This document shows, in pieces, positions 40,613 to 64,000 of a DNA stretch of 64,000 nt (its first letter is position 1; the number at the start of each line of letters is the position of its first letter). The DNA comes from a virus, in the IMG/VR virus record IMGVR_UViG_3300045988_015843; one strand, given 5' to 3'. The position numbers and the translations under genes were made by a program. The notes under the pieces are model-generated. The model saw nothing but the letters and a program-made list of their open reading frames with translations, had not been told where the DNA came from and searched no databases.

Positions 40613-41104
40613 ATGATTTATTCAAAGCTTAGACGTACAAATATACAGAATGCGGCAGGTACTCCTGTCACACCTCGTATTTTACATATGCAAGAGCCTG
40701 ATAAATTGAAAATCGTGGATAGCTCTCAGTTTCAATTCGGAGATGTTCTCGATGCAAAATCTACAATGGAACTTATCGGAAAGGGCGGTGGTTCTGGTGT
40801 AGATATGAAAATGCTCTAGGCATATGTGAACAAAATGACGATTGAGTATGATCCAGCAACTAAATCTGTAAAACTAATCTCTCCAGATGGGATTGTTATT
40901 GGATCTGCTGATATGTCATCTATTGCAACAGAGGGTGGTGTTGCAATTGAATCTGGTTCTTACGATAAGGGTAGTGATAAACAGAACGTGCTGCGTCTGA
41001 AAATGACTGACGGATCTTCTAAGGAGATCTTGATGAACGATGTTATGGACTCTAATGACGATTATTCTATCGACACAAAAGACATCGCATCAATCTTAAA
41101 TTAA
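40613..41104 (+). CDS. hypothetical virion protein (1 in-frame TAG); first TAG-containing plus-strand gene
   Basis: Track ORFs 40589-40819 and 40826-41104 share a frame and are joined by TAG 40817-40819. Start taken at ATG 40613. Confidence 0.6.
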
Positions 41105-41185
41105 TCACTTAAATTTTTAAATTATGGAAGAGATTAACAAAATTTATACGAGTGACACGGCTAATAGCTTTAGCAATGGTGCTTG

Positions 41186-41869
41186 ATGGGCGCAATGCTT
41201 GGTAATAATGACCGCAACGATGCCTTGACAGCTATGTTAGCTAATGGTGGTAATCAGCAGATGTGGAATAACCCGTTTGCATATCTGATATGGTTGATAT
41301 TTACCGGTCAGTTCGGTGGCTTCGGCAATAACGCAAATAATTGCATTGGTGATCAAATCCAGAATTTACAAAATCAGATTCAAGACAACCATAATAGTGA
41401 TCTCACTATGCAGGCTGTCAATGGTAACACTGGTGCTATTGCACAACTATCTCAGACATTGAATGTCGGATTCGATCAGGTACAGTCAGCTGTTAACCAG
41501 ATGACTACGATGATGTAGGGTGGTATGAACAATATTAATACATCCATTTTATCTCAGGGTTACCAGAATCAACTGAACAATTGTCAACAGACAAATACTA
41601 TTCTGATGCAGAGTCAGGCGCTTCAGAATGCTGTTCAGAACGGTTTCGCACAGGTAGGTTTCCAGGCTGAGCGAAACGCATGTGATGCTAAGGAAACAAG
41701 TACACAGAATACACAGAAGATCATTGATACCCTGACTAATCATTGGAATCTGGAACAGCAGACTACGATTCAGCAACTACGCGATGAGATTGGTAGATTA
41801 AATCAAACCAATGCTCTAATCTCAGTTCTTAAACCGAGCTCTGCTGTCACAACAACTACAACAGTTTAA
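41186..41869 (+). CDS. Gln/Asn-rich hypothetical protein (1 in-frame TAG)
   Basis: 41183-41518 and 41525-41869 are in the same frame, joined by TAG 41516-41518. Confidence 0.6.
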
Positions 41870-41880
41870 TAAAATAATAA

Positions 41881-43191
41881 ATGCAATATTTAGATCTATT
41901 AGGCCTTCAGCAACTTTGGACGTCTGCTAAGGCCAAGTTTGCTACAAAAGGTACTCTTGCAAATAGTGGTATTACAGACGGTTACTCAAGCATTGAGACC
42001 GGTACTGTTGTCCCTATTAGGAATCTTGATAATGGTATTCTCGCAGATATTATCACTGGAAGTGATAATCATAAACTTAAGACTCAGTATGTCACAGTTG
42101 ACGCCACTGGTGGTCTTGCTACAACGAACTATGTTGACACCAAGGTTGGTGCTGTAAAGGTTCCCGCTTATACGCTCACCAAGTCTACATCTACTGATTA
42201 TGCTGCCGTATATCACCTCCAGAAGGATGGTGCTAATGTTGGTGAAGCCATCAACATTCCGAAGGATATGGTTGTTGAGTCAGGTAAGGTTGTTTGGGGT
42301 TCTTATGTTGATGGTGTGTTCACTCCCGCAACGGATAAGAAGAATGCTACTCCGTATGTTGAGTTGACTCTGGCTAACAGTACAGCTAACAAGATTTATA
42401 TCGCTGTTGCTGATCTTGTCAATGAGCATAAGGCTGGTACTGGTATTAGTATTACGAATAACACTGATGGTACTCGTACGATTGAACTTGGAGCTGATGT
42501 TAATGCAAAGATCAACTAGAGTGTGATTGAATTCAGCGTACCTAAAGAGGGCAATAAATTGCTATGCCATAAAAACAACAACGACTCAGTGGCGATATTG
42601 GCGGGTGATGGAACAAATGTTATTATAGGTGAAAATTCGGATGGAATAGCTGAGCTCACTATTAATGCGAATATTCTAAATGATGTCAATGCCGCAAAGT
42701 CTCAGTCAAGCACTAACAAGACCAATCTTGACGCACTAACTAAGCGTGTTGATGGTATTGTTGCAACGGGTGGTGAGGCCAACCAGGATGCTTATTCTAA
42801 CATTAAGGTTGGTTCTACTACGCTTGCTGCTACAAGCAAGACTGATACTGTATAGTTTGCTGGTGCTGGTCTGATTTCTGTAACTGGTTCTACTGCAGAC
42901 AAGAAGGTTACGATCGGCCACTCTAATCCGACTGGTGCCGCTGTTAAGGCAGCTGGTTTCTATAAGTTTGCTACGGATGCTGCTGGTCACGCTACTGGTT
43001 TGACTGCTGTTGCTGCTAGCGATATTACGGCACTCATCGGTGCTCATGGCCTTACGCTGAGCAAGACGAATGCTGCGAACGATACTGCTGCTATCACGAT
43101 TGGTAGCACTTCTTACACGGTTGGTCCGATTCCTCTTGGTGATGAGACTAATCCTGCTAAGGACACTGTTCGTTATATTCTGAATCATTAA
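41881..43191 (+). CDS. tail fiber protein (2 in-frame TAG)
   Basis: 41881-42519, 42523-42855 and 43000-43191 form one frame through TAG 42517 and TAG 42853. The N-terminal MQYLDLLGLQQLW...KFATKG motif is shared with 44200-45753. Confidence 0.65.
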
Positions 43192-43200
43192 TATTGGATT

Positions 43201-43236
43201 GGTACGGGGTTATCTCGTACCCAATCCATTTTTTAA
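43201..43236 (+). terminator. Rho-independent terminator after the tail fiber gene
   Basis: GGTACG-GGGTTATCT-CGTACC followed by CAATCCATTTTTT. Confidence 0.6.
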
Positions 43237-43246
43237 CAACATACAT

Positions 43247-44199: not shown

Positions 44200-45753
44200 A
44201 TGAAATTTTTAGATCAATCAGGTTTAGTAATTGTTCAATCTTGGATCAACAATAGCTTTGCAAAAGTTGATCAAGCGTTCGGTACTATAAGTTATGCAGG
44301 AAACATATCCGGTATAACTGTTAGTCAAGTCAGTACAACAACAAACGGTAGTCCTTCAACTGTTTATTACGACACAACTGGTGGACAATTTGTATTGAAA
44401 GCTGGTAACAACGTATATTACAACAACTGGCCGAACAAATATGTATGGGTTGTTCCTGGCATTAATGAGCCTTGGGGTTGTGTAATCTATAAAGATCTGA
44501 GCTTAAATAAGCTATATAAATATCTTCCCGAGGAAGGTAGTATGACAGCGTGTGACGTAACAGATTATCCTGCAATGCGTCTTCGTGATCTGCTTGCTGA
44601 TATTGAGATGTATATTGCTCAGAAAAGTATATATGCTCCGTCACAGCATACTCACTCTATTGCAAATGTTACTGGACTTCAGGCCAAGCTTGACACTATA
44701 AACAAGGGTTTGACCGTACTTGGACTTGATCAATGGGGTGCTGTTAAAGTAGATGGTGTTCTGACCAATTCTATTAATGCTGCACAAGGTGGTGTTGGAA
44801 ATCCGACCGATATATATATTGCACAGTCTATCTCAAGTCCGTCTGGTACGATATCTGGAATTGTTGGTAGGATTGGATCTGCATATTATACGACATGGAG
44901 TGGTACTAATGTACCAACCAATTTGTATATGAAGACAAATGGTAGTCCTTATTACAGCAAGTATTATTATACTATGGGTTCTAATGGTCTGCCAAACGCG
45001 GTATACAGATGGAACGGTCAGAAGTTTACGATCGATGAGGATTATTCAGATCATTCGATTTCTGATGGATTCGGCAAAGACCTTGAGGATGCAATACAGC
45101 CGGCATTGGATTATATTGATACAGTATCTGCTGAGTCGGTATCCAGAACAGATGCTGTTACTCATAGTGCTATTAGCAGTACATCTAGCACAGTAAGATT
45201 AGCTTATGTACTTTCGTCAGCAAGTACACATGGTAATATTAAGAATGCTAGTGCTTCAGAGCTCGGCCTTGTCAATGGTGTAAGTTCATCAGGTACAGGT
45301 AATGTTGTAACAAGTATGTCAAAAGCTGCTAACTCAAGTAGTATTACATGGGAACGTAATTGGGTTGAGCCGTGGACAGCTAATGCTTATCATAAACAGG
45401 CATCTGCAACAGCTCGTATTTCAGCTACTGAAGGTGAGTTCTCGGTCCTTGACTTCAGATCAGGTTCAGGCATGTATCTTGGTTTTGCATCTCCGTATAG
45501 TTTGACTAACGGCATGAACCATCATTGGAGAGGTTTGATTATGAAGAAAGCTAATCAGCCTATTAATATTGCAAAGCCTTCAATGCTCAAAACAGATTCT
45601 GTAATCCTGTGTAACCTTCCACAAACTCAGATTGTTAGTGGTACGAATTTCTATTTTGACGCATATACTACGACAAATACATCATCACTATCACATGATA
45701 CTTTGGTACTAATACTGTATCCGGTTACAAACGTATTAGAGTTTTCAGCTTAA
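44200..45753 (+). CDS. tail fiber / receptor-binding protein
   Basis: 517-aa TAG-free ORF. N-terminal MKFLDQSGLVIVQSWINNSFAK resembles the N-terminus of 41881-43191. Confidence 0.6.
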   Translation: MKFLDQSGLVIVQSWINNSFAKVDQAFGTISYAGNISGITVSQVSTTTNGSPSTVYYDTTGGQFVLKAGNNVYYNNWPNKYVWVVPGINEPWGCVIYKDLSLNKLYKYLPEEGSMTACDVTDYPAMRLRDLLADIEMYIAQKSIYAPSQHTHSIANVTGLQAKLDTINKGLTVLGLDQWGAVKVDGVLTNSINAAQGGVGNPTDIYIAQSISSPSGTISGIVGRIGSAYYTTWSGTNVPTNLYMKTNGSPYYSKYYYTMGSNGLPNAVYRWNGQKFTIDEDYSDHSISDGFGKDLEDAIQPALDYIDTVSAESVSRTDAVTHSAISSTSSTVRLAYVLSSASTHGNIKNASASELGLVNGVSSSGTGNVVTSMSKAANSSSITWERNWVEPWTANAYHKQASATARISATEGEFSVLDFRSGSGMYLGFASPYSLTNGMNHHWRGLIMKKANQPINIAKPSMLKTDSVILCNLPQTQIVSGTNFYFDAYTTTNTSSLSHDTLVLILYPVTNVLEFSA

Positions 45754-45766
45754 TCAATAACCAGCC

Positions 45767-47527: not shown

Positions 47528-49594
47528 ATGATTGATTTTAATAAGAAAATAGTTAACTCAGATAAGTTTAGACAAGCTGCTTTATTCTTCGAAAAGAACG
47601 GATGTTATACGTTTGCTCCAGAAGGTACGACAGACTACTTCAATTATTGGAAACAAGAACAACAAAGATGTTTAAATGGATACACAGCTCCTGATGGAGA
47701 TTAGATAACTGGGTATCATTACTTTTATCTCAACTATAGTCCTATTATGAAGCTTGTTGAAACAGAATACACAGATCGTAATGGAACTAAGAGAACTAGA
47801 CGAGAGCGTTTGTTTAGATTTCCTGATTTTTGGGATTACGATTGGTTCTATTATAATGCTATAGAACAGGCTGAAGATGAAGGTAAACATATGGTTGTAC
47901 TTAAAGCTCGTGCTCGTGGATACTCATTCAAAGGTGCGTCTATGTTATGTAGAAACTATTTTCTTATTCCAAAATCAAAGAATTTTGCTGTTGCATCGGA
48001 ACAAAAGTTTCTAACAGGTGATGGTTTGTTAACAAAAGCTTGGCAAATCATGGACTTCTTAGATAAGCACTCTGGATGGGCTAAACGAAGATTGAGAGCA
48101 ACTTCTTTAGAACGTACATCTGGATTTAAGGTTAAAGATGAGATAACAGGTAAAGAGGTTGAAGATGGTTATCTATCTAGCGTAACAGGTATAACACTTA
48201 AGAATGATCCAGAACGTATTCGTGGTACTCGTGGTAGATTGTTCTTATGGGAGGAGTCTGGTAAATTTCCAGACATTAAACAAGCTTGGCAAATAGCAAG
48301 ACCTTCTGTAGAAACAGATGACGGTGTTGCGTTCGGATTGATGATTGCATTTGGTACTGGCGGATCTGAGGGTGCAAACTTTGAAGGTTTGTCAGATATG
48401 TTTTATCATCCAGAAGGCTTTAATTGTTTAGACTTCGATAATATTTGGGATGAGGGTATGGCTGATAAGAAGTGTGGATTCTTTGTTCCAGCATGGTCTA
48501 ATCTGCAATCAGATGAACATCCTGAATGTATGGATTCTGATGGTAATACGAATAGATCTGCATCTGTATAGGTAATATTAGAACAAAGAAGAATCGTAAG
48601 AGATAGTCAGCCTGATGAAACTGTAACAGATAGATATATTGCAGAGCACCCCAACACACCTTAGGAAGCAATTCTTGAGGTTGGTAAAAACATATTTCCA
48701 AAAAAGCAATTACAAATGCAGCTTAACAAACTAAGGACGAACACGAAATTAGCTAATATGAAACATGTTGTTGACTTGGTTTGGGAAGGGGATGGTACTG
48801 TAAAAGCCATTGAAAAGAAGGGTGGTGATATAACACACTACCCACTAAAGAAAGGAGAGTAGCCAACAGGATCTGTTGTTATATACGAATATCCTGTTAA
48901 AGATCCTCCTTACGGATTATACATAGCTGGTCAGGACCCTTATGATCAAGATGGTTCTCTTACAAATTCATTAGGATCTACGTTTATATATAAACGATTC
49001 TAGCCAGGAGAAGCTTGGTCAGATGTGATAGTTGCTGAATATAGTGGAAGACCTGATACAGCTGAAGAATATTATGAGAATGTTCGTAAGCTATTGACTA
49101 TGTATAATGCGAAATTATTGTTCGAGAATGAACGTAAAGGTATATACCCGTACTTTACAAATAAGCATTGTGATTATATGCTAGCAGACCAACCAGATAA
49201 GGTTATAAGTGAAATATTCAAAGACTCTAAAGTACAACGTAAGAAAGGTTGTCATATGACAAAACAAATTAGATCATATGCAGAGGGTCTTATAAAAGAA
49301 TGGTTACTTGAAGAATATGAACCGGGTCATCCAAATCTCGAACGTATATATAGTGAGCCATTGATAGAAGAGTTGTTGTTAGATGATGGTGTACGAAATG
49401 TAGACCGTGTAATAGCTCTATGTATGGTCATGCTATATAGAGAAGAATTATATCAAGTAAAGATTGCAGCAGCAAAAGAGTAGAATAAACAAATAGATTT
49501 CTTTGAAACGCCATTGTTTAGTAACCAATGGTTTGACGAAGATAGTTCGTACGATAATTAGTACGACAATAACATTCCGACATTTACGTTTTAA
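47528..49594 (+). CDS. terL: terminase large subunit (7 in-frame TAG)
   Basis: ATG 47528. Track pieces 47747-48571 and 49025-49483 are in the same frame. TAG occurs at 47700, 48569, 48662, 48860, 49001, 49481 and 49559. ATPase-like VLKARARGYSFKG and LFLWEESGKF. Directly precedes the portal. Confidence 0.8.
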
Positions 49595-49596
49595 CA

Positions 49597-52500
49597 ATGA
49601 TAAGAGTAGAAGATAATTTATATAATGCGAACTTTCCGCAACAGAAACTACCTCTAAAGAAAAAAGATGAGTAGTGGTAGCATGACTGCGTGAATTACAT
49701 TATCGGAGAAGGTAATGTTGTATCTGGCGGAATGTAGAAGACTCGGTTTAGCGAACTTCAAACATATTACGATCTATATAATAGTATCTTTGATGAAAAG
49801 GACTTTAAACGTATAACCAACCCGTTTAAAGTATCAGACGGATTTCCTGCTACACCACAAGACTTCAACATAATTAGGCCTAAGGTAGACCTCCTTATAG
49901 GTGAAGAGACAAAGAGGCCGTTTAATTTCAGAGTTGTACGTACATCACAGGAGGCAACATCTGACTTAATGGATTAGGAGAAAGAAATGCTAATCCAATA
50001 TATGATGAGTGCTATTATGGGCAGAATGAGTCCTGAAGAGCAACAATAGTTCCAACAACAACTTTAGAGTGGTGAGATAATGCCGCCTGAAGAGATTGGA
50101 AAGTATATGCGTAGGGATTACAAAGATGTTATAGAAAACACAGCCTATCATTCTCTGATGTATATACGCGAGAAGTGTGGTATAGATAACGAGTTTATCA
50201 AAGGTTGGAAAGACGGTTTGATAGCGGGACAAGAGGTATACTATGTTGGTGTACAAAATGGAGATCCTTACATGGAACGTGTGAATCCTGTATATTTTTC
50301 ATTCGATCAGTCACCAGACCTTGAGTTTATAGAAGATGCGTCATGGTGTTGTAGAAAAATGAGACTCCCTGTAGCTGAAGTATACGACAGATATCATGAT
50401 AAGTTGTCTGAGAAAGATTTAGACAAATTAAACGAGATGTTAACAGGTCGTCCATCAAATGATCTTGGAGAAAAAGACCCTGTTGATAATTTCAATCATA
50501 TACAAATGCATATATACGATAATCCTGTTTTTGATCAGAAGACAAGACATAACATTAATGTATGGCATTGTTGTTGGAAATCGTTTAAGAAGATTAAGTA
50601 TGTTACGTTTCAAGATGAAAACGGAGATGCTTAGATTGAAATCGTAGACGAATTCTATAAACCTGTTGGAACAGAGATAGGTATTGATGAGGATTGGATT
50701 GTTGAAGTATGGGAAGGATATAGAGCCGGATCAGATTTGTATTTTGGTATACAACCGGTTGCTTATCAACATATAAGCATTGATCAACCAGATAGTCAGA
50801 AGTTACCTTATTGTGGTGCTATATATAGTAACACTAACAGTAAGCCAAGATCCCTTGTAAGCATCCTCAAGCCTTTGCAGTATATGTACATTGTATTGTG
50901 GTATAGACTTGAATTAGCAATAGCTAGGGATAAAGGTAAGGTTATCAATATGGATATTACGTAGATACCTAAATCTATGAATATTACACCAGATCGATGG
51001 ATGCATTATTTATCAAGCGTTGGTGTAAACTTCATAAATCCTTATGAGTGCTTTGATCCAGATACAGAGGTGTTGATGTACGACAGATCTGTTCGTAAGA
51101 TTAAAGATATTCATATTGGTGATAAGGTACTTGGTCCAGATGGAACTCCACGTACTGTATTGGATGAGTGTGAGGGTATCGACAAGATGTATAGAATACA
51201 CAGTGGCACAGGATGTGATGATTAGATTGTAAACAGTAGACATAAAATTTATTATACTGAATATAATCACTTTAAAAAAACATACACTGACAAGTTGGCA
51301 ACTCCATTGGAGTTGATGAAAGAGGATCTACATAAGTCGTATATAAAACAAAATCGATATTTGAAACGAGTACATCCTACTGACAATAATGTTTCTTCAA
51401 ATTTACTATTAGATCCGTATTATCTTGGATTATGGTTGGGCGATGGTTTTACAAACAGTCCTGCAATAATAAACGAAGATATAGAGGTGATTAAGTGGTT
51501 GTCAGAATATGCCGAGTCTAATGGTATGACAACAACAATCCTTTCTGATAAAAACGTTCCTGTTATATATCTTAAAAATAAGGTGTATAATCATAAGAAC
51601 CCAATAAAAGACACACTTCAATATTATGGAATCTTAAATCAAAAAGATATCCCAGATGATTACCTACATGGTAGTGTTGAAGATAAACTACAGTTAATGG
51701 CAGGTCTTATTGATACTGATGGGCATTTTTCAAAGCGTGATCGCATTTATACATTTAGCCAATGTGAATCTAGAAAACATATTGTAGACAAACTTGCTTT
51801 TATAGCAAGATCTTTAGGATTTAAATGTAGTCTACACATGTACAAAACCGCTGGTACAAAACACATATGTGGTAATAAGAGCACATGTCAAAATACATAC
51901 ACGTTACGAATAATTGATGGATTGTACGATATTCCATGTAAAATTGCTCGTAAGAAACATCATTGGGTTCAAAAGCGTACAAAACGAAGTTTGACAAATT
52001 TCAAGGTTTCGTACAGCCATATTGGAAAATACAAAGGTATCACTACAGATGGAGATCACTTCTTTGTGTTAAAAGACTTTACAGTAGTACATAACTGTCA
52101 ATGGGGTATTCCTGGCAGAGAGGGTGGTAAACCAGCTACGTTTAATCAAATAACATCACTTGATCTTACGATGAGTAATGTTATTGCGGAGTATATTCAA
52201 CTCATGGATAAGATTGAACAATTAGCTGGAACAATCACTGGTATCACAGAGCAACGTCAAGGAGCTATTAGCACATCAGAACTTGTTGGAAACGTAGAAC
52301 GATCTGTATTACAATCATCTCATATCACAGAACCCTTGTTCTGGGTACACAACCAATGTAAGAAGCACGTGTTAACAATGCTTCTTAATACAGCAAAAGG
52401 TGTCTGGGAAGAGTCTGGTAAGAAAAAGCTTCAATACGTATTTGATAATGGAGAAAGAGCATTCTTAGCAATAACAAAACAATTCTATTATGAAGATATG

Positions 52501-53130
52501 GATGTATTCGTTAGTGACACATCTAAGGATGCTGAGAACATAGCAAAACTTCAACAGCTTATTCAACCTGCAATGCAAAATGGAGCAAGCTTGTTAGAAG
52601 CAGCAGAGGTTCTTACGAATGATAACTTTAACATTATCAAACAGAAGCTTAAAGATATGCAAGATCGTCAAGATCAACTTTAGCAGCAGCAACAAGAGGC
52701 TCAGCAGCAACAAGCAATGCAACTTCAGCAGATGCAGAATGAGGCTAAAGAGCAAGAACTCATGCTTAAGGAAGCTGAAATGGATCTTCAGAGGTATAAG
52801 ATTGATGCTGATAATCAAACCAAGATTGCTGTGGCTGAAATTAGCACATATAGAGGTACTGAGGATAAGGATATCAATATGAATGGTATTCCAGATCCGA
52901 TGGAGATAGCTAAGGATGCTACACAGCAACGTAAGATAGATTCAGAAGCATATACTAAGCGTTATGAAGCTCGTCAGAAAAAGGAGATTGAAGATAAGAA
53001 GATCAGTCTTGCTAAAGAACAGATGAAACATGAAAGTGAACTTTAGAAGTAGAAAGACGACGCTGCTATGTAGAGAGAAGAGCTTAAGGCTAAGACCGCA
53101 TTGAAAAACAAAGTAGCTGGTGAACGATGA
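49597..53130 (+). CDS. portal protein interrupted by an intein (13 in-frame TAG)
   Basis: A single frame runs from ATG 49597 to TGA 53128-53130, linking track ORFs 50080, 50737, 50977, 51295 and 52717. About 828 codons remain without the intein. Position is immediately after TerL. Confidence 0.75.
51049..52095 (+). mobile_element. Intein with LAGLIDADG homing endonuclease (349 codons, 1 in-frame TAG)
   Basis: Begins NPYE|CFDPDTEVLM and ends FTVVHN|CQWG. Block B-like VNSRHKI. LAGLIDADG motifs YYLGLWLGDGF and LMAGLIDTDGHF. Confidence 0.85.
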
Positions 53131-53330
53131 ATAAGGATTATATAAAACCTTCTGAACTTCTACAAAGACAACGACAAACAGGTGAGTCTTATTGGGACAT
53201 GGTTGGAAAACCGTTGACTAATAAGACTCAGTCTGATCGTCAGTTAGATTCAGAGCTTGCTAAGATAGAATATCTAGCTAACAAGTGGAAGGAAGAAGCT
53301 GAAGCAGATTTGTAGGACTATGATTATTAA
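53127..53330 (+). CDS. small hypothetical protein
   Basis: ATGA overlap with the portal stop. TAG 53313 is followed by 4 codons and TAA. Confidence 0.5.
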
Positions 53331-54033
53331 TTACTTACCAGAATATAGAAAAGGCAAATCTAAAGTAAACCAAACATCTAAATAGTTTGTTGATAAAATG
53401 GGACCTCTGGTTTATGACAAGATGCATCAAATGGGTATCTACTCAGATAGAACGTTTGATTATCTCATGCGTCAATTAGCATTTGAGTCAGCAAACGGAA
53501 CATCGAATGTTGCGAGAAAATATAACAACTACGGTGGTGTTCGTGTACCAGGAAAGACACAATATCAATCATATAAAAACGATTAGGCATTTGTTGATTA
53601 CTGGCTCCCTATGATGAATCGTAAATATGCAAAAGCATTGAAGGCTCGTAATATTGATGAGTATGGCGCAGCATTGAAGAGTCTTGGTTATTATGAAGCT
53701 CCTGTGTTACAATATACATCAGGTTTAAAGAGTTCTACAAGCGTTGGATCTGCTGCTGCAGCTTATGCTACAAGTAGAAACAAGGCTAATAAACCAATGC
53801 CTATGCAGACATAGCCTGTATTAAAACCTGTAATAAATCTAATGCCTGATTATATGAAAAATCAGACGCCTATTTGGCAACCAACATCTGATATTCAAGA
53901 TGTCCCTGTACAGCAGGAACCTACACAACAGACATTATAGTTTACTTTACCTCCAATAGAGAATCTATATGCAAAATTGGTTAACGATCAGCCATGGATT
54001 CCTGGAGAAGTTCCAATGAATGGATTATTATAA
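53320..54033 (+). CDS. glucosaminidase/FlgJ-like peptidoglycan hydrolase (4 in-frame TAG)
   Basis: One frame runs from ATG 53320 through TAG 53383, 53584, 53812 and 53938 to TAA 54031. QLAFESANGTSNVARKYNNYGGVR resembles the ESgwG...NNlFGi glucosaminidase motif. Confidence 0.5.
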
Positions 54034-55259: not shown

Positions 55260-56783
55260 ATGAATAACGGTTTGTTAAACAACCTTCAGCTTTATCGCGG
55301 ACGTCGTTTCAGCGATCTTGTTGATGAGAATATGATTTCTAACGCATTGCTGACTAAGCCTCATGAGGTATCTGGTCTGCTTTCACTTGTCTTTGGTACC
55401 AAGGATGATGGTGTTTCTACAGCAATCGACTTGATTACCGGTGGTCTTGGTAAAACAATGATCATTGAGAATCGTGAGTATGAGTGGTCTGTTATGATTG
55501 ACGCTGATCACGCAGTAAATATTCGTTGGGCTAAGGCTAATGGTCAGGAGATTACTTCAGCTAATTTCGCTGATGCAACTGCTGGTCTTAACGGTGCTCC
55601 GATTTATATCGCACTTGAAGAGAAGTTCTTCGGTCCTGGTGCTATTCTTTCTTTTGACAACTATAATTTCCAGGTTCGTGTAAGCGGTCAGCCTTACCAG
55701 GACGGTAGTGCTTGGGTATACGAGTGCTATGTTGTCGATGGTTTCTCTGGTTCTTACATTCCTGGTGAGTACTTGCTTCCTGGTCGTCAGGTTAGCCGCA
55801 TGGCTTCTGCATACGAGGAGTACAGTGATGAGGAGGATATCATCAACTATCAGACCCCGTTTAAGATGCGTAATAACCTCATGACGCTTCGTCTTGGTTA
55901 TGACATCACGGGTGATGCTTATAGCACGGTATTGGCTATTGCATTGAAGGATCCTGAGACTGGTAAGACATCTTATCTGTGGTCTGATTATCAGTATTGG
56001 CTCGCTCTTCGTGAGTGGAAGAGACGCGAGGAGAAGGCTCTTCTGTTTGGTAAGTCTAATCGTAACTCTGATGGTACGTATAACCTCAAGGGTTCTAATG
56101 GTCGTCCTGTTGCCGTATCAGCTGGTCTGTTCGAGCAGGTTGCTCCGGCTAATGTACGTTATTACACGACTCTCACCGCTGAGTTGCTTGAGGATTATCT
56201 GTTTGATCTTTGCTACAATATGCTTGGTACTCAGGAGCGTAAGTTTATGGCTCTTACTGGAGAGATGGGTATCAGAGAGTTCGATCGTATTTTGAAGGAG
56301 AAGGTTGCTTCTTTCAATATGATTGATACGCACTTTGTAACTGGTTCTGGTCAGGATCTCGTTCTTGGTGGTCAGTTCACAACCTACAAGATGACTAACG
56401 GCATTGAGCTTACGCTTAAGCGTTGTGCAATGTTTGATAACATGGAGCTGTTCCGTCAGTTGCACCCGCTCACGGGTAAACCTCTGATGTCTTACACGTT
56501 CCTGTTTGTTGATCTTGGTAACCGTGATGGTCAGCCGAACATCGTTAAGGTTTGCCGTAAGGGTCGTGAGTTCGTACAGTGGTGCACTGGTGGTTCTGTA
56601 GTTCCTAGTGGCTATGCTAACAGCATCAATACGCTTCGTTCTAATAGCCGTGATGGTTATCAGGTTCACTTCCTCGGTGAGGAGGGCATTATGCTCCGTA
56701 ACCCGCTGTCTTGCGGTATCCTGTATTGCGATGCTGAGGATTCTGAGCACACGAACAACGGTGGTATCAAGAAAGGTGCCTAA
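55260..56783 (+). CDS. major capsid protein candidate
   Basis: 507-aa TAG-free ORF with distinct GC3-rich codon usage, downstream of portal and scaffold, and followed by a cluster of strong hairpins. Confidence 0.65.
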   Translation: MNNGLLNNLQLYRGRRFSDLVDENMISNALLTKPHEVSGLLSLVFGTKDDGVSTAIDLITGGLGKTMIIENREYEWSVMIDADHAVNIRWAKANGQEITSANFADATAGLNGAPIYIALEEKFFGPGAILSFDNYNFQVRVSGQPYQDGSAWVYECYVVDGFSGSYIPGEYLLPGRQVSRMASAYEEYSDEEDIINYQTPFKMRNNLMTLRLGYDITGDAYSTVLAIALKDPETGKTSYLWSDYQYWLALREWKRREEKALLFGKSNRNSDGTYNLKGSNGRPVAVSAGLFEQVAPANVRYYTTLTAELLEDYLFDLCYNMLGTQERKFMALTGEMGIREFDRILKEKVASFNMIDTHFVTGSGQDLVLGGQFTTYKMTNGIELTLKRCAMFDNMELFRQLHPLTGKPLMSYTFLFVDLGNRDGQPNIVKVCRKGREFVQWCTGGSVVPSGYANSINTLRSNSRDGYQVHFLGEEGIMLRNPLSCGILYCDAEDSEHTNNGGIKKGA

Positions 56784-59883: not shown

Positions 59884-60936
59884 ATGATTACATTTGTAAA
59901 TACGGTTTTGGTATCTAATCTCAAAGCCGAGAATATTGCTACTGCAGCTCCTGCTGCTTGTGACAGCATGAATGCTGTATCTGCTGATTATGGCAAGTTT
60001 GTCATCATGGATATGGACAAGGGTACGTTTGTGACTGCAGATGAGGCTAAGAAGGCTGATCGTATTAAGATCGGTCTTGTTACAAACAAGAACACTGTTC
60101 GTCGTGGCCCGAAGGACATTAAGTACCTTCCGATCATAAAGTGGTCTAACGTAATCGCTATGGATGCTATTAAGAGCGTTAACGCTAGCGTTTATCCCAC
60201 TGGTGATGCTGAGACTGAGGATACGGTTACGATTGACTTTTCAAAGATTGATGCTACGACTCTTGCTAAGTTTGCAGAGGGTGGTAAGCGTTTGATCGTT
60301 CGTCTTACGTTTAAGGATCTGCCCACTCGTTATCGTAAGTGGACTGAGTCTTATGAGTACGTGACTGAGGTTGACGATACTGCTGAGACGATTGCTAAGA
60401 ACGTTGCTAACATGATCAATGCTCAGTGGAAGCGTGCTCGTGTACAGGCTTCTGATGCAGCTGGTGTTGTTACGCTCGTAGCACTTCCTTACGATGACGA
60501 CAATGCTTCTAACACGATCAACTGGGCAGGTAAGGTTCGTTTTACTGTAAATACGTATTACACGGATCCTGCTGCTGATGGTTGGGAGAGTAAGAATAAG
60601 AATTTCCCGAAGGGTGTTGTTATCTCAAAGACTGAGGGTAAGCAGTATCCTGCAATGGGTAAGCTTGTACGTGATGAAGAGTCTAAGGCAATGGGTTATC
60701 AGGGTATCCTGAACCAGGGCTGTTGCACGTGGCCGATCATTCGCCCCGAGCTCGAAGCACAGAATGATGGTAAGTACAACATGCTTACGATTGAGTTCCG
60801 CACTCCGTACCGTGCAGCTGACGACATTACTCGTTATACGCAGCAAACGCTGAACGTATATGCACAGGGTGATATTGCAGATCTTGCCGGTATCTTTGGT
60901 GTAACTCCTGAGGCTCTAACAGACGCCAAACCTTAA
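59884..60936 (+). CDS. abundant virion structural protein candidate
   Basis: 350-aa TAG-free ORF with MCP-like codon usage and its own terminator. Confidence 0.55.
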   Translation: MITFVNTVLVSNLKAENIATAAPAACDSMNAVSADYGKFVIMDMDKGTFVTADEAKKADRIKIGLVTNKNTVRRGPKDIKYLPIIKWSNVIAMDAIKSVNASVYPTGDAETEDTVTIDFSKIDATTLAKFAEGGKRLIVRLTFKDLPTRYRKWTESYEYVTEVDDTAETIAKNVANMINAQWKRARVQASDAAGVVTLVALPYDDDNASNTINWAGKVRFTVNTYYTDPAADGWESKNKNFPKGVVISKTEGKQYPAMGKLVRDEESKAMGYQGILNQGCCTWPIIRPELEAQNDGKYNMLTIEFRTPYRAADDITRYTQQTLNVYAQGDIADLAGIFGVTPEALTDAKP

Positions 60937-60987: not shown

Positions 60988-60997
60988 ATCAGTTCGT

Positions 60998-62428: not shown

Positions 62429-62855
62429 TTTAAACATTTTAATAAAAAGAGTTGCACTAAAACCCACGTACACAATCGGTCATATGTATATTAACGGTAA
62501 ATATATGTGTGATACATTAGAAGACACTAACCGTGATTCAAATAAGAATGGTGTTTTCGATAATGGTGAGGTTAAGATTAAAGGACAAACAGCTATTCCA
62601 TATGGTACTTATGAGGTTGTTTGGGCATATTCTCCTAAATACAAACGATTCACTCCAAGATTGTTGAATGTACCTTCATTTGAAGGTATTCTGATACACT
62701 CTGGTAATACATCTAAGGATACTGAAGGTTGTATATTAGTCGGAGAAAACAAAAAGAAAGGTATGGTATTAAACTCAAGAGCCACTGTTAATAAGTTGTA
62801 TCCTATCATAAGGAACGCTTGTAAACAAGGTAAAGTGCATCTCACCATACAATGA
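62415..62855 (+). CDS. putative cell-wall-active enzyme (DUF5675/YkuD-like H...GC motif)
   Basis: GILIHSGNTSKDTEGCILVG. First gene of an apparent lysis cassette. Confidence 0.4.
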   Translation: MKESNLNILIKRVALKPTYTIGHMYINGKYMCDTLEDTNRDSNKNGVFDNGEVKIKGQTAIPYGTYEVVWAYSPKYKRFTPRLLNVPSFEGILIHSGNTSKDTEGCILVGENKKKGMVLNSRATVNKLYPIIRNACKQGKVHLTIQ

Positions 62856-62856
62856 T

Positions 62857-63147
62857 ATGAACAATTGGAAAGATGTGACGCAGTACGCTACAGCTGTTGC
62901 TTCGTTCTTATCTGGCGTAGCAATGGCTTTTGCGTCATTTATTAGAAATAATACAGTAGAAGGAGAAATCTTAGGATTCATCGGAGAGTGCTTCACTTTA
63001 ACTGGAGGTATATTTGGAATAGGTTTGTATGTACGACATAAGGCCGAATAGATGGGTGCAAGAATTCGACATACTATATTAAATGATCTTAAGAATGTGG
63101 ACAGCGATACTGAAGTGGCTGATGAGTCACAAAAAGATCGTCTATAA
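62857..63147 (+). CDS. holin-like two-TM protein (TAG at codon 65, then 31 more codons)
   Basis: Two hydrophobic helices, VASFLSGVAMAFASFI and ILGFIGECFTLTGGIFGIGLYV. TAG 63049 is followed in frame by ATG... and TAA 63145. Confidence 0.45.
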
Positions 63148-63772
63148 CGCTCTTGTAGGCTCTCTAATCGCATTTCTAACAGCGTTTGGTATAATTACTC
63201 ATAATAAGAATAAAATGCTCTCAGAAGAGCTTTTAGAGGCCTAGAATAACATTGAAGCCTATTAGGGAATGCTTAGTGGTTCCCAATAGGCTAACAATGT
63301 CTTAACGCTTAATATGAAGAAACTCGGATAGTCTAAAGATTCATTATTGGTTGAGATGGATCGTATAGCTAAGGAGAATAATATTAAGTCTAAAAATATC
63401 ATAACTGGTGCAACCAACCATGAGCAAATAGACGTTACCCTCGACAAGGGGGTGGAGAGGGTTGTTGAGAGAGATACTATTAGAGATCTGGTAACTATAT
63501 TAAAAGATACAGTATATACAGACTCTATACTATACAATCCTCAAACATCCGTACACTACACTATAGGTAGAGATACGGTATAGGTGAGACTTAAGTTAGA
63601 TAATACACAATACTTGTACATATATAAACGTAAGGAATACAAAAACAAAAAGAACTTCTTCTAGAGATTATTTACTCTTGATTGGAAGAAAGTAACTAAG
63701 TACAAGTATAAGATAATAAACACGAATGATCTTATAAACAATAAAGATGTTCGTATAGTAAACGCTTAGTAA
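63122..63772 (+). CDS. spanin-like N-terminally anchored coiled-coil protein (7 in-frame TAG)
   Basis: ATG 63122, TM segment ALVGSLIAFLTAFGII. In-frame TAG occurs at 63242, 63263, 63287, 63329, 63581, 63662 and 63767. Ends with TAG TAA (63767-63772). Confidence 0.5.
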
Positions 63773-63773
63773 A

Positions 63774-64000
63774 ATGACATATACTTCACTTAAAGAGATT
63801 ATTGACGACATCCTATTGTTAGTCAGGAATAATAACATTAGTGAGAGTGAGGATTTATCAAGAGCTTAGATAGCATTATGGGTTCGTACATATAAGGCTG
63901 CTATAATCAAAGATAGGTTTGATAAATAGAAAGCTGGTCTGCTAGACGATGACGATGTAGTAAAGCTAATCGATAGCCTGTATATACGAGAGAAAGGCCC
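63774..64000 (+). CDS. hypothetical protein, 5' part (continues beyond window; 2 in-frame TAG so far)
   Basis: ATG 63774 lies 1 nt after the TAA. The frame is open to the window end apart from TAG codons. Confidence 0.5.

What the first reader, a model, noticed from the sequence alone, without database searches (positions are those of the whole stretch)
40613..64000. TAG is a sense codon in the late/structural genes (also 3-4202)
Seen in sequence:
- Every break between adjacent same-frame ORF fragments on the plus strand from 40613 onward, and in 3-4202, is a TAG.
- Reading TAG as sense gives full-length genes that end at TAA/TGA with normal ATGA/TAATG-type junctions.
- Counts of in-frame TAG: 23 in the giant ORF, 7 in TerL, 13 in the portal, 7 in the spanin-like gene.
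- No TAA or TGA needs to be read through anywhere.

Established knowledge: amber reassignment (code 15-like, usually to Gln) is known in some gut phages, including crAss-like lineages.

Inference: the amino acid is Gln, based on the Gln-like CUA tRNA in the window.
Basis: partly seen in the sequence, partly recalled or inferred. Interest (0 to 1): 0.75.

Follow-up and report, generated by a model that had tools for sequence, protein, structure and literature searches.

The report
Late-gene TAG-to-glutamine recoding, crAss-like phage
This gut crAss-like phage reads the stop codon TAG as glutamine in its late (virion and lysis) genes, which is already documented for this phage group, but the suppressor tRNA expected to do the reading is itself split by a roughly 1-kb mobile intron, which may explain why such tRNAs are often reported as missing.

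Summary
On the + strand (3-4202 and 40613-64000) there are 72 in-frame TAGs and no in-frame TAA or TGA. Reading TAG as sense raises coding density in the late block from 76% to 95%; a TGA-sense control gives 77%. Codon alignments with about 80 relatives show TAG alternating with CAA/CAG, and several portal columns hold only Gln or TAG. Gln beats every other residue by at least 14 nats.

The window is a crAss-like phage (Crassvirales, near Suoliviridae/Oafivirinae). TAG-to-Gln recoding of late genes is published for this group and already annotated in RefSeq relatives, so the finding itself is known.

What I add:
- Replication genes have no internal TAG. TAG sits at the DNA polymerase stop position, backed by TAA.
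- Four minus-strand genes (32025-36350) also carry sense TAGs.
- No intact tRNA(CUA) exists in the window. The gene is split at 38796-38830 and 39810-39847 by a 979-nt intron encoding an HNH endonuclease.
- Joined in silico, the exons give a CUA cloverleaf with compensatory changes spanning the intron. Close strains carry an intronless copy at the same site.
- I found no published report of this split gene. Splicing is inferred, not shown.

The parts
3..4202 (+). C-terminal 1,399 codons of a giant virion-type protein, cut at its 5' end by the window edge. 23 in-frame TAGs; ends at TAA.
   Evidence: for the counts. In one search the homologous frames in relatives continue across the TAG sites, and Gln is the commonest non-TAG partner at codons 489-704.
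40613..64000 (+). Late block of about 22 tiled genes carrying 49 in-frame TAGs and no in-frame TAA/TGA. It includes tail-like genes, TerL, portal, glucosaminidase, major capsid protein and lysis genes.
   Evidence: coding density 75.9% to 94.7%. Synteny with the RefSeq phages cr130_1 and cr131_1.
47528..49594 (+). Large terminase subunit (TerL), 688 aa, 7 sense TAGs (codons 59, 348, 379, 445, 492, 652, 678).
   Evidence: 70% amino-acid identity over the full length to cr130_1 TerL. 67 of 69 relatives also carry 2-15 in-frame TAGs and none carries TAA/TGA. Codon table.
49597..53130 (+). Portal protein, 1,177 codons and 13 TAGs, carrying an intein.
   Evidence: weak P22_portal match at residues 860-1062. 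Gln/TAG-only or nearly Gln/TAG-only columns at codons 28, 151, 346, 456 and 1150.
51049..52074 (+). Intein inside the portal (residues 485-826). It starts with Cys, ends HN followed by Cys, has a homing-endonuclease domain with two LAGLIDADG-like motifs, and contains one sense TAG (codon 543).
   Evidence: The cr130_1, cr131_1 and L083 portals lack this stretch. Pfam Hom_end_hint 5.7e-14 and Hom_end 1.1e-7. Motifs read by eye.
55260..56783 (+). Major capsid protein, with no TAG at all.
   Evidence: Pfam Crass_capsid E=1.5e-211. The cr130_1 and cr131_1 capsid genes also have no TAG.
53320..54033 (+). Glucosaminidase-type lysis or virion enzyme, 4 sense TAGs.
   Evidence: Pfam Glucosaminidase 1.5e-7; PHROG endolysin 1.7e-4.
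63083..63772 (+). Spanin-like membrane protein. 7 TAGs against 4 CAA/CAG, so TAG makes up 64% of its Gln codons. The last sense codon is TAG, followed by TAA.
Evidence: Orthologs in cr130_1 and cr131_1 carry 8 and 7 TAGs and sit after the annotated holin.
38796..38830 (+). Exon 1 of the suppressor tRNA(CUA): acceptor 5' strand, D-arm, anticodon-stem 5' strand, and loop bases C-U-C-U.
   Evidence: Compensatory U6:A67 to C6:G67 change in strain L003.
38831..39809 (+). 979-nt intron in the anticodon, between anticodon bases 35 and 36. U precedes the 5' splice site and G is the last intron base. The core resembles a group I intron.
   Evidence: P3, P8 and a P2-like hairpin are predicted with compensatory changes; P7 (GACUG/CAGUC) was read by eye. 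Rfam gives no group I hit.
38855..39757 (+). Intron-encoded HNH homing endonuclease, 300 aa and free of TAG. Its 3' end overlaps the conserved RNA core.
   Evidence: PHROG HNH endonuclease 2.6e-44.
39810..39847 (+). Exon 2 of the suppressor tRNA(CUA): A36, A37, C38, anticodon-stem 3' strand, T-arm, acceptor 3' strand.
   Evidence: The in-silico spliced 73-nt product is called tRNA(cta) by ARAGORN. The anticodon loop CUCUAAC is identical to the intronless ortholog in L004.
11548..13455 (-). DNA polymerase (early gene). No internal TAG. It ends with TAG (11551-11553) immediately followed by TAA (11548-11550).
   Evidence: 0 TAG in 45,267 aligned codons of 73 relatives. TAG is the first stop in 29 of 73, and TAG-TAA in 25 of those. 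Another 42 have TAA as their first stop (36 of 63 within a few codons of the same point).
4318..31600 (-). Early/replication block: PD-(D/E)XK nuclease, primase, DnaB helicase, AAA ATPase, DNA polymerase and six tRNAs. Internally free of TAG, with TAG used only at stop positions.
35874..36350 (-). Minus-strand gene of unknown function with 5 sense TAGs. The start was corrected to Met31 of the longest ORF.
   Evidence: tblastn matches in 8 Oafivirinae-type phages span the TAG positions in one piece. Codon alignment to cr131_1.
32025..33553 (-). Two minus-strand ORFs: 33065-33553 with 5 TAGs, and 32025-32981 with 3 TAGs and an HExxH motif. In relatives they form one continuous ORF of about 570 codons when TAG is read as sense.
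   Evidence: including TAG/CAA and TAG/CAG exchanges in L183.
34560..35012 (-). Minus-strand gene with one conserved sense TAG (codon 67).
16253..16325 (-). Ordinary phage tRNA-Gln(UUG). It shares U1, A73 and the U8-G9-GUGUA D-arm start with the suppressor tRNA.

Best explanation
The window comes from a crAss-like phage (Crassvirales, close to Suoliviridae/Oafivirinae) that uses two readings of TAG during infection.

**Early genes.** The replication and nucleotide-metabolism genes on the minus strand are written to be read by an unmodified host ribosome. They have no internal TAG. TAG appears there only as a terminator, often backed by an adjacent TAA.

**Late genes.** The virion, packaging and lysis genes, plus a few minus-strand genes at 32-36 kb, contain TAG at about 0.8% of codons, roughly 17% of their Gln codons. 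They can be completed only when TAG is decoded as glutamine.

**Decoder.** The decoder is most likely a phage amber-suppressor tRNA with anticodon CUA. Its gene lies in a TAG-free stretch just upstream of the late block. In this phage the gene is interrupted in the anticodon by a 979-nt intron that resembles a group I intron and encodes an HNH homing endonuclease. The mature suppressor would therefore require RNA splicing.

**Shown versus inferred.**
- Shown from sequence: sense use of TAG, the Gln assignment by comparative evidence, the contrast between early and late genes, the split gene and its covariation, and the intronless alleles in close strains.
- Inferred: that the intron splices, that the product is charged with Gln, and that recoding delays late-protein synthesis (the Borges et al. 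model).
For: **Sense TAG**
- 72 in-frame TAGs and no TAA/TGA in tiled late genes.
- Coding density 75.9% to 94.7%, against 76.8% for the TGA-sense control.
- Homology runs through the TAG sites in TerL, the portal and the giant ORF.

**Gln**
- Gln/TAG-only or nearly Gln/TAG-only portal columns; Gln is the majority residue at 17 of 41 sites.
- Likelihood +14 nats over Lys.
- TAG exchanges with CAG/CAA in close relatives.
- The TAG-free TerL relatives L007 and L022 have Gln in 25-26 of the 75 columns where other relatives have TAG.

**Lineage and precedent**
- Crass_capsid E=1.5e-211.
- Nearest annotated phages are cr130_1 and cr131_1, whose RefSeq CDSs already read through TAG.
- Yutin 2021 (PMC7886860), the Borges preprint (10.1101/2021.08.26.457843) and Peters 2022 (PMC9523058), read.

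**Early genes**
- At most 6 in-frame TAGs in about 215,000 aligned codons of early orthologs.
- TAG at the DNA polymerase stop position in 29 of 73 relatives, as TAG-TAA in 25.

**Split suppressor tRNA**
- ARAGORN calls tRNA(cta) only at the U|...G| junction.
- Same anticodon loop and acceptor stem as the intronless syntenic genes in L004, L036 and cr131_1.
- 13 of 16 in-silico spliced homologs fold as CUA tRNAs.
- 11 of 20 cloverleaf pairs show compensatory changes, including pairs that link the two exons.
- Intact and intron-bearing forms are mutually exclusive: 14 versus 7 of 38 loci, none with both.
- The intron core shows the order P3, internal hairpins, P7, P3', P8, P7', with covariation.
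Against: - There is no expression, peptide or tRNA-charging data for this phage.
- Rfam's group I model does not match, either across the whole region or in the 3' core alone.
- I found no convincing internal guide sequence. The only candidate is a 3-bp P1 (and by eye).
- In 8 related copies the base before exon 2 is A, not the universal terminal G.
- About 34 kb of the genome lies outside the window and could hold another suppressor tRNA.
- The tRNA's discriminator (A73) and its 3:70 pair differ from the E. coli tRNA-Gln identity set (from memory).
- Recoding is not strictly 'late block only': TAG-containing and TAG-free genes interleave at 32-36 kb on the minus strand.
Confidence: 0.85

Rival explanations
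1. TAG is read as sense in late genes, but the split tRNA gene is dead, having been inactivated by a homing-endonuclease insertion. Decoding would then rely on another suppressor: a tRNA elsewhere in the genome, a host tRNA, or near-cognate readthrough after RF1 is impaired.
For: - No Rfam group I hit.
- No clear internal guide sequence.
- Some copies end in A rather than G.
- About 34 kb of the genome is unseen.
- The literature accepts host-encoded or undetected suppressors as possibilities (PMC7886860).
Against: - Compensatory changes keep the acceptor and anticodon stems intact across the ~980-nt insert in 13 diverged copies.
- The anticodon loop CUCUAAC is conserved.
- The intron 3' core is conserved and shows covariation.
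- Intact and split forms never co-occur in 38 loci, as expected if each is the sole suppressor gene.
Confidence: 0.17
2. TAG is a sense codon but encodes a residue other than glutamine, for example Lys, Glu, Tyr, Trp or pyrrolysine.
For: - Several window TAG sites align mainly with Lys, Glu, Arg or Ala (TerL codons 59, 348, 445, 492).
- ARAGORN labels any CUA tRNA as 'Pyl'.
Against: - Gln beats Lys, Glu and Arg by at least 14 nats and every other residue by more.
- Strictly conserved columns hold only CAA, CAG or TAG.
- The commonest non-TAG partners in close relatives (codon identity 81-93%) are CAG and CAA.
- Peptides show Gln at TAG in other crAss-like phages (PMC9523058).
- The 'Pyl' label reflects the anticodon alone.
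Confidence: 0.05
3. TAG is still a stop everywhere. The fragmented late ORFs would be pseudogenes, assembly errors, or genes joined by frameshifting or introns.
For: Under table 11 the late block still shows 76% ORF coverage. Introns and an intein really are present in this lineage.
Against: - Every one of the 72 interruptions is TAG and is in frame. None is TAA or TGA.
- The same pattern holds in 67 of 69 TerL relatives from independent metagenomes.
- Protein homology continues immediately across each TAG.
- A 1,400-codon frame free of TAA/TGA has a chance probability of about 2e-30.
Confidence: 0.01
4. The whole system, host included, uses code 15 at all times. TAG would never be a stop for this phage, and the lack of TAG in early genes would be incidental.
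For: A few minus-strand genes interleaved with TAG-free genes do contain sense TAG.
Against: - TAG occupies the stop position of DNA polymerase in 29 of 73 relatives, where 42 others end at TAA, and it is usually backed by TAA.
- TAG is also the first stop in other early genes, for example 18 of 50, 7 of 44 and 5 of 53 relatives.
- Early orthologs have essentially no internal TAG in about 215,000 codons, although out-of-frame TAG is as common there as in late genes.
- Published host predictions for these phages are standard-code Bacteroidota.
Confidence: 0.03

Closest known systems
Amber-to-glutamine ('genetic code 15') recoding of late genes in crAss-like phages: Delta group/Suoliviridae in Yutin et al. 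2021 (PMC7886860), the model of Borges et al. (10.1101/2021.08.26.457843), and the proteomic proof of Peters et al. 2022 (PMC9523058).
   Same: - Only TAG is reassigned, and it aligns with Gln.
- Recoding is concentrated in structural, packaging and lysis genes, while replication genes remain compatible with the standard code.
- A spanin-like lysis gene is among the most heavily recoded: 64% of its Gln codons are TAG, matching the Borges et al. observation.
- The closest annotated relatives, cr130_1 and cr131_1, are already annotated with TAG read through.
   Different: Nothing essential differs for the recoding itself. The added details are TAG at the DNA polymerase stop position with a conserved TAG-TAA tandem, and sense TAGs in a few minus-strand genes.
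Phage-encoded suppressor tRNA(CUA) as the 'code-change module' upstream of the late or lysis genes (Borges et al.). One example is the intact tRNA in cr131_1, annotated tRNA-Gln in RefSeq (L002 850-922).
   Same: Same genomic position (between the small lipoprotein-like gene and dUTPase), same acceptor stem, and same CUCUAAC anticodon loop. It lies in a TAG-free segment just 5' of the recoded block.
   Different: Here the gene is split by a 979-nt intron carrying an HNH ORF, so standard tRNA finders miss it. The D-arm, anticodon stem and T-arm differ from the intronless allele through compensatory changes.
Group I introns in bacterial tRNA anticodon loops: cyanobacterial tRNA-Leu(UAA) and tRNA-fMet (the latter with an intron-encoded endonuclease, Bonocora & Shub 2001) and Azoarcus tRNA-Ile. 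Reviewed in PMC3984707.
   Same: - Insertion in the anticodon loop.
- U before the 5' splice site and G as the last intron base in the window's copy.
- Core order P3, hairpins, P7, P3', P8, P7'.
- Sequences resembling the classical R and S elements (by eye, from memory of the Tetrahymena consensus).
- A homing-endonuclease ORF.
   Different: - The host gene is a phage suppressor tRNA. The 2014 review states that all phage introns known then were in protein-coding genes.
- No Rfam match, and no clear P1/internal guide sequence.
- The ORF fills about 90% of the intron and overlaps the core.
- A subfamily ends in A instead of G.
Lak megaphages: TAG recoding with tRNA(CUA), RF2, and small introns in several tRNAs (10.1101/356790).
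   Same: A gut phage of Bacteroidota with sense TAG in structural genes, a suppressor tRNA, and a precedent for introns in phage tRNA genes.
   Different: - As described, the Lak tRNA introns are short, carry no ORF, and sit in ordinary tRNAs (Phe, Gly, Thr, Tyr), not in the suppressor.
- The Pfam/PHROG scans run here covered about 30 of roughly 84 ORFs, so they do not test whether RF2 is present.
E. coli supE, an amber suppressor derived from tRNA-Gln(CUG) (from memory).
   Same: A CUA-anticodon tRNA that starts with U1, has a weak or absent 1:72 pair, and inserts Gln at UAG in competition with RF1.
   Different: Discriminator A73 and C3:G70 here, against G73 and G3:C70 in E. coli. Charging by the host GlnRS is untested.

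Membership tests
Code-15-type amber-to-Gln recoding in phage late genes | In-frame TAG inside conserved genes, with homology continuing past each TAG | tested here: met
   TerL, the portal, the giant ORF and others align with relatives across all TAG sites.
Code-15-type amber-to-Gln recoding in phage late genes | TAG positions align with glutamine in homologs | tested here: met
   Gln is the majority residue at 17 of 41 sites. Some columns hold only Gln or TAG. Gln leads by 14 nats.
Code-15-type amber-to-Gln recoding in phage late genes | TAA and TGA remain terminators | tested here: met
   No in-frame TAA/TGA; all genes end at TAA or TGA. The TGA-sense control gives no gain in coding density.
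Code-15-type amber-to-Gln recoding in phage late genes | Recoding confined to late or lysis modules, with early genes readable in the standard code | tested here: met
   Early orthologs have at most 6 TAGs in about 215,000 codons, and TAG is used there as a stop. Exception: four minus-strand genes at 32-36 kb carry sense TAG.
Code-15-type amber-to-Gln recoding in phage late genes | Phage-encoded suppressor tRNA with anticodon CUA (frequent but not universal) | tested here: inconclusive
   No intact gene in the window. A split gene gives a CUA cloverleaf after in-silico splicing. Splicing has not been demonstrated.
Code-15-type amber-to-Gln recoding in phage late genes | Peptides with Gln at TAG positions | not testable with these tools
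   Shown only for other crAss-like phages (PMC9523058).
Crassvirales (crAss-like phages), near Suoliviridae/Oafivirinae | crAss-type major capsid protein, TerL and portal in conserved order | tested here: met
   Crass_capsid E=1.5e-211. TerL is 70%, the portal about 80% and the capsid protein 83% identical to cr130_1, with the same gene order.
Group I intron | U as the last exon-1 base and G as the last intron base | tested here: met
   The window reads ...GGCUCU|UUUAUCC...UUUAUG|AACCC. This is the only junction that gives a 7-nt anticodon loop. However, 8 related copies end in A.
Group I intron | Conserved core of P3-P8 with the P7/P3 pseudoknot | tested here: inconclusive
   RNAalifold predicts P3 (UCUUCUC/GAGAAGA), two internal hairpins, P8 and a P2-like hairpin; 8 pairs show compensatory changes. 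P7 (GACUG/CAGUC) was identified by eye and does not vary.
Group I intron | P1 formed by the exon-1 end and an internal guide sequence | tested here: not met
   No conserved 5-6-nt guide sequence complementary to the exon-1 end (the few GGGGU(U)-type hits lie inside the ORF, pair mostly through G-U, and occur in only 5 of 16 copies). The only candidate is GGA in the conserved UUGGAUGG, giving 3 bp (by eye).
Group I intron | Match to the curated covariance model (Rfam RF00028) | tested here: not met
   No hit at E<=10 in 38380-40560 or in 39560-39850. The 900-nt ORF insertion may be what prevents a match.
Group I intron | Self-splicing with a guanosine cofactor | not testable with these tools
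   Needs an in vitro transcription and splicing assay.
tRNA-Gln identity of the suppressor | Bacterial tRNA-Gln hallmarks: U1 with a weak 1:72 pair, G10, U35, A37; charged by GlnRS | tested here: inconclusive
   U1, a U1-U72 mismatch, G10, U35 and A37 are present. The D-arm start matches the phage tRNA-Gln(UUG). A73 and C3:G70 differ from E. coli. Overall identity to the phage tRNA-Gln(UUG) is only 55%. Charging cannot be tested here.
Intein (in the portal) | In-frame insertion absent from orthologs, Cys at position 1, C-terminal HN followed by Cys/Ser/Thr, and Hint plus homing-endonuclease domains | tested here: met
   Residues 485-826 are absent from the cr130_1, cr131_1 and L083 portals. 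Sequence reads C...VVHN|C. Hom_end_hint 5.7e-14 and Hom_end 1.1e-7.

The most novel reading that the evidence does not exclude
In this phage and at least 18 related viral contigs, the only amber-suppressor tRNA gene is interrupted in its anticodon by a mobile intron of about 980 nt that encodes an HNH endonuclease and resembles a group I intron. The decoder of the recoded late genes would then be produced only by RNA splicing.

If true, this would:
- explain part of the long-noted mismatch between evident TAG recoding and 'missing' suppressor tRNAs in Suoliviridae and other recoded phages;
- be the first group I intron reported in a phage tRNA gene that I could find;
- add a possible extra control point (splicing) to the switch between the two codes.
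Probability: 0.55. Interest if true: 0.65.

Novelty: already known. Interest (0 to 1): 0.4.

Why it matters
**The recoding itself.** It matters mainly for practice. Under table 11 the late third of this genome breaks into fragments, with TerL, the portal and the giant virion protein each split into many ORFs. Annotation must therefore use TAG=Gln. Biologically it is one more example of the published idea that a phage can hold back virion and lysis proteins until its own suppressor tRNA is present.

**The split suppressor tRNA.** This has wider use. Published surveys find a suppressor tRNA in only about 40% of TAG-recoded phages. An August 2026 preprint still lists the missing suppressor in Suoliviridae as unexplained. 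A search that allows for introns could close part of that gap. It would also overturn the generalisation in a 2014 review that phage introns avoid tRNA genes.

**TAG-TAA stops in early genes.** They suggest selection for genes that terminate correctly both before and after the code switch.

Tried and rejected
- **PHROGs on ten TAG-rich proteins.** Only the HNH endonuclease and a weak endolysin match came back; the rest were uninformative.
- **Rfam.** Searches at gathering threshold and at permissive E-values on 38380-40560 and 39560-39850 gave no group I, tmRNA or other relevant family.
- **Internal guide sequence.** A systematic search for a 5-6-nt sequence complementary to the exon-1 end, across 16 intron copies, found nothing conserved.
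- **Same core elsewhere.** A degenerate pattern for the intron's R/S-like core matched only the tRNA-intron copies, not the introns that split capsid genes in relatives. I could not tie it to an already accepted group I family.
- **tblastn of the 318-aa HExxH protein** against GenBank phages gave no match. Relatives were found only in IMG/VR, at 38% identity.
- **Sigma-70 promoter and terminator scan** around the tRNA region gave counts at or near shuffle expectation. crAss-like phages use other promoters anyway.
- **Folding the odd 93-nt tRNA-like element** gave a stability no better than shuffled sequence, z = -0.37.
- **Alternative splice junctions.** Those giving Ser, Lys or Leu anticodons were rejected because they break the U(-1)/terminal-G rule or the 7-nt loop, and because intronless orthologs read CUCUAAC.
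- **Pyrrolysine.** ARAGORN's 'Pyl' label was rejected because it reflects the anticodon alone, and the alignments point to Gln.
- **TGA recoding.** Rejected: no in-frame TGA and no density gain.
- **Literature.** Searches for an intron-split suppressor tRNA in phages found none. The Lak phage preprint reports small introns in other phage tRNAs.

Full report

Yes. Listing stop-to-stop frames with only TAA and TGA as stops gives a continuous tiling of the + strand from 40589 to the window end, plus one 1,400-codon frame at 3-4202.
- 23 in the giant ORF
- 7 in TerL (47528-49594)
- 13 in the portal (49597-53130)
- 7 in the spanin-like gene (63083-63772)

In total the late + strand genes hold 72 in-frame TAGs in 8,770 codons and no in-frame TAA or TGA. 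Neighbouring genes abut with ATGA overlaps or gaps of 1-13 nt.

Coding density of 40613-64000 rises from 75.9% under table 11 to 94.7% with TAG as sense. A TGA-sense control gives 76.8%. A 1,400-codon frame free of TAA/TGA has a chance probability of about 2e-30 at this composition. Out-of-frame TAG is about as frequent in early genes (1.45%) as in late genes (1.76%), so the contrast is specific to the reading frame and not a composition effect.

**2. What is the genome?**

Megablast of the late block finds only crAss-like phages (cr7_1, cr273_1, cr130_1, cr131_1, cr124_1, a Bohxovirus and Dulem virus 42) at about 75-80% nucleotide identity over parts of the query. cr130_1 and cr131_1 are classified as Crassvirales; Suoliviridae; Oafivirinae and share gene order with the window. 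The capsid gene matches Pfam Crass_capsid at E=1.5e-211.

The annotated CDSs of both RefSeq relatives contain many in-frame TAGs and no TAA or TGA, for example 8 and 12 TAGs in cr130_1 TerL and portal. Recoding is therefore already part of their annotation. IMG/VR holds strains with 98-99% TerL identity to the window.

**3. Which amino acid?**

I aligned window genes codon by codon with 85 related loci.

*TerL.* In a TerL alignment of 71 sequences (69 related loci, cr130_1 and the window), 67 of the 69 related loci carry 2-15 in-frame TAGs and none carries TAA or TGA. Across the 75 alignment columns that contain TAG in any sequence, CAA and CAG are the commonest partner codons, and Gln is the majority residue in 27 columns, ahead of Glu with 11 and Lys with 9. 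The two TAG-free relatives, L007 and L022, have Gln in 25-26 of those columns.

*The window's own TAG sites.* Of the 41 that have non-TAG residues aligned, Gln is the majority at 17, and the next is Lys at 5. Portal codons 456 and 1150 are strictly Gln/TAG-only columns across about 78 relatives, and codons 28, 151 and 346 hold at most 5 other residues. A BLOSUM62-based likelihood over these sites ranks Gln first, 14 nats ahead of Lys.

*Close relatives.* At 81-93% codon identity, TAG is usually conserved, and where it changes it changes mostly to CAG or CAA. The giant ORF behaves the same way wherever relatives cover it.

*Published context.* Yutin et al. [quoted passage not shown] Borges et al. 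give the regulatory model and note that the spanin and lysozyme genes are the most TAG-biased. Peters et al. 2022 detected peptides with Gln at TAG in two crAss-like phages (PMC9523058). In the window, TAG makes up 64% of the Gln codons in the spanin-like gene, against 17% for the late genes overall. The capsid gene and several other structural genes have no TAG at all.

**4. What happens in the early genes?**

The minus-strand block at 4.3-31.6 kb encodes a PD-(D/E)XK nuclease, a primase, a DnaB-type helicase, an AAA ATPase and the DNA polymerase. ThyX (34996-35802) lies just beyond it on the same strand.

In the window these genes have no internal TAG. In up to 77 relatives, their orthologs carry at most 6 in-frame TAGs in about 215,000 aligned codons. 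Examples are 0 in 45,267 codons for DNA polymerase, 0 in 22,568 for DnaB and 0 in 16,576 for primase.

TAG is not merely avoided there. It is used as a terminator:
- The window's DNA polymerase ends ...LELF-TAG-TAA.
- The first stop of this gene is TAG in 29 of 73 relatives, and 25 of those read TAG-TAA. Another 42 relatives have TAA as their first stop, 36 of 63 had TAA within a few codons of the same point.
- Other early genes also end in TAG in some relatives: 18 of 50, 7 of 44 and 5 of 53.

So this is a two-state code: TAG is a stop for early genes and Gln for late genes. The adjacent TAA would limit readthrough to one extra residue once the suppressor is active. That last point is my inference.

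**5.

Four minus-strand ORFs between 32025 and 36350 also contain sense TAGs, and they interleave with TAG-free genes such as ThyX.
- The gene at 35874-36350 matches eight related phages in a single tblastn piece that spans its TAGs. Its ortholog in cr131_1 starts at the window's Met31, which leaves 5 sense TAGs.
- The ORFs at 33065-33553 and 32025-32981 correspond to one continuous ORF of about 570 codons in relatives when TAG is read as sense. TAG/CAA and TAG/CAG exchanges are visible there.

**6. The suppressor tRNA**

ARAGORN and Rfam find seven ordinary tRNAs (ARAGORN also calls an odd 93-nt tRNA-like element and a doubtful tmRNA) but no CUA anticodon.

Reading 38200-40700 showed a 5' tRNA half at 38796-38830 and a 3' half at 39810-39847. 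They flank a 300-codon TAG-free ORF that is an HNH endonuclease (PHROG E=2.6e-44). Joining the halves gives a 73-nt cloverleaf with anticodon CUA. Among the nearby junctions I tried, this is the only one that both puts U before the 5' splice site and G at the intron end and yields a 7-nt loop.

Independent support:
- *Intronless orthologs.* cr131_1 and the 98%-identical strains L004 and L036 carry an intact tRNA(CUA) at the same place, between the small lipoprotein-like gene and dUTPase. It has the same acceptor stem and, in L004, the same CUCUAAC loop. RefSeq labels the cr131_1 copy tRNA-Gln.
- *Compensatory change in a near-identical strain.* Strain L003 (99% TerL identity) has the same intron plus a compensatory U6:A67 to C6:G67 change that spans the intron.
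- *Many copies.* A 22-nt motif from the intron's 3' part retrieves 18 IMG/VR contigs. In each, the motif is followed by a tRNA 3' half beginning AACC or AGCC.
- *Spliced products fold.* Of the 16 copies for which both exons were held (15 of those contigs plus the window), 13 give ARAGORN tRNA(CUA) calls after in-silico splicing.
- *Covariation.* RNAalifold recovers the cloverleaf from 13 sequences. Compensatory double changes occur at 11 of 20 pairs, including acceptor and anticodon-stem pairs that join exon 1 to exon 2.
- *Mutual exclusivity.* Among 38 TerL-centred loci of at least 20 kb, 14 have an intact CUA tRNA, 7 have the intron motif, and none has both.

*Gln identity.* The features that suggest Gln are U1, a mismatched 1:72 pair, G10, U35, A37, and a D-arm start identical to the phage's own tRNA-Gln(UUG). 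These are suggestive only. Overall identity to that tRNA is 55%, and A73 and C3:G70 differ from the E. coli identity set (the E. coli rules are from memory).

**7. What kind of intron?**

Evidence for a group I intron:
- The splice-site nucleotides in the window's copy follow the rule (U before the 5' site, G at the intron end).
- The insertion is in the anticodon loop, as in bacterial tRNA group I introns (PMC3984707).
- It carries a homing-endonuclease ORF.
- The 3' 145 nt form a conserved core. RNAalifold predicts, in order: a P2-like hairpin with several compensatory pairs; P3 (UCUUCUC/GAGAAGA); two internal hairpins; and P8. Eight pairs show compensatory changes.
- By eye, GACUG upstream of P3' pairs with CAGUC downstream of P8. 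This gives the P7/P3 pseudoknot order typical of group I cores.
- ACAGACUGAACG and GGAUGCAACAGUCG resemble the classical R and S elements. This comparison is from memory of the Tetrahymena consensus.

Evidence against, or unresolved:
- Rfam RF00028 does not match.
- No conserved internal guide sequence of 5 nt or more exists. The only candidate is a 3-bp P1 using GGA in the conserved UUGGAUGG (and by eye).
- Eight related copies have A, not G, before exon 2 while P7 is unchanged.

I therefore call it 'group I-like', with roughly 0.7 confidence that it is a true group I intron. Splicing is inferred.

*Literature.* I found no paper describing an intron-split suppressor tRNA in a phage. A 2014 review states that all phage introns known then were in protein-coding genes. 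The Lak megaphage preprint reports short introns in other phage tRNAs. Several papers, including an August 2026 preprint, list the missing suppressor tRNA in recoded Suoliviridae as unexplained.

**8. Verdict**

However, the phenomenon is already described for this phage group and is built into the annotation of its nearest RefSeq relatives. As a finding it is therefore already known.

The value added here is threefold:
- TAG is demonstrably used as a stop in early genes, with TAA backup at the DNA polymerase stop.
- Sense TAGs extend to a few minus-strand genes.
- The 'Gln-like CUA tRNA' is in fact a gene split by a mobile intron. If it splices, this explains why tRNA finders miss the suppressor in part of this family.

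**Confidence**
- TAG is sense in late genes: about 0.98.
- The residue is Gln: about 0.9.
- The split gene yields the functional suppressor: about 0.7.
- The intron is group I: about 0.7.
- Splicing acts as a regulatory gate: about 0.15.

Noticed in passing
window 38796-39847 (+): The only CUA-anticodon tRNA gene in the window is split in the anticodon by a 979-nt group I-like intron encoding an HNH endonuclease. Intronless alleles sit at the same site in 98%-identical strains, and 18 IMG/VR contigs share the intron.
   Followed up: yes
window 51049-52074 (+), inside the portal gene: A 342-residue intein with a homing-endonuclease domain (two LAGLIDADG-like motifs; C...HN|C). It is absent from the cr130_1, cr131_1 and L083 portals and contains one sense TAG.
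   Followed up: yes
window 11548-11553 (-): DNA polymerase ends with TAG immediately followed by TAA. The same TAG-TAA tandem occurs in 25 relatives, while 42 others end at TAA. This looks like a stop that works both before and after the code switch.
   Followed up: yes
window 32025-36350 (-): Four minus-strand ORFs of unknown function carry sense TAGs (3, 5, 1 and 5) and interleave with TAG-free genes such as ThyX. Recoding is gene-specific rather than strictly strand- or block-specific.
   Followed up: yes
window 32981-33074 (-): The ORFs 33065-33553 and 32025-32981 lie in different frames here but form one continuous ORF of about 570 codons in relatives L183-L186. The N-terminal part is 94-100% identical. 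The C-terminal part, which has an HExxH motif, is only 38% identical even in near-identical strains. This could be a swapped module, a frameshift or an assembly error.
   Followed up: partly
window 38439-38531 (+): A 93-nt tRNA-like element 265 nt upstream of the split suppressor. ARAGORN reports a '4-base anticodon ggaa'. Rfam tRNA scores 27.6 bits, below the 29-bit cut-off, with about 20 extra nt in the anticodon arm. It is conserved in L003, L004 and L036, but its fold is no more stable than shuffled sequence. It could be a tRNA with a small intron of the Lak phage type, or a tRNA-like RNA.
   Followed up: partly
loci L164, L168, L170-L173, L175, L177, L180 (3' end of the tRNA intron): In these copies of the tRNA intron the base before exon 2 is A instead of the terminal G expected of group I introns, although the P7 sequences are unchanged. 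Their splice site or splicing chemistry is unexplained.
   Followed up: partly
window 55260-56783, 44200-47008, 56948-57700, 59884-60936 (+): The capsid gene and several other large structural genes have no TAG although they sit inside the recoded block. The same holds for the capsid genes of cr130_1 and cr131_1. The most abundant virion proteins appear to avoid the recoded codon.
   Followed up: partly
window 24573-25354: A gap of about 780 nt without a credible gene, inside the early block. ARAGORN calls a permuted tmRNA at 24574-24951, but Rfam does not support it, so it is probably a false positive. The function of the gap is unknown.
   Followed up: no
L002 948-1727 (cr131_1) and L004 about 2090 onward: Where the suppressor tRNA is intact, a free-standing homing-endonuclease gene lies immediately downstream of it. 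It begins MIVRY..., which looks GIY-YIG-like by eye. The two tRNA alleles are thus each linked to a different endonuclease, which suggests competition between mobile elements for this site.
   Followed up: no
proteins P0002-P0014, P0046, P0078, P0079 (TerL homologs, 1,048-1,063 aa): Very close TerL relatives (92-98% identity for P0002-P0014) carry an intein (PF14528/PF14890). The window's TerL has none, while its portal does. Intein presence varies between near-identical strains.
   Followed up: no
window 17900-20000 (-): A stretch with only short ORFs (about 40-100 codons). Several of them end first at TAG and reach TAA or TGA 10-30 codons later. They may be small early genes that end in TAG. 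I did not test whether they are real genes.
   Followed up: no
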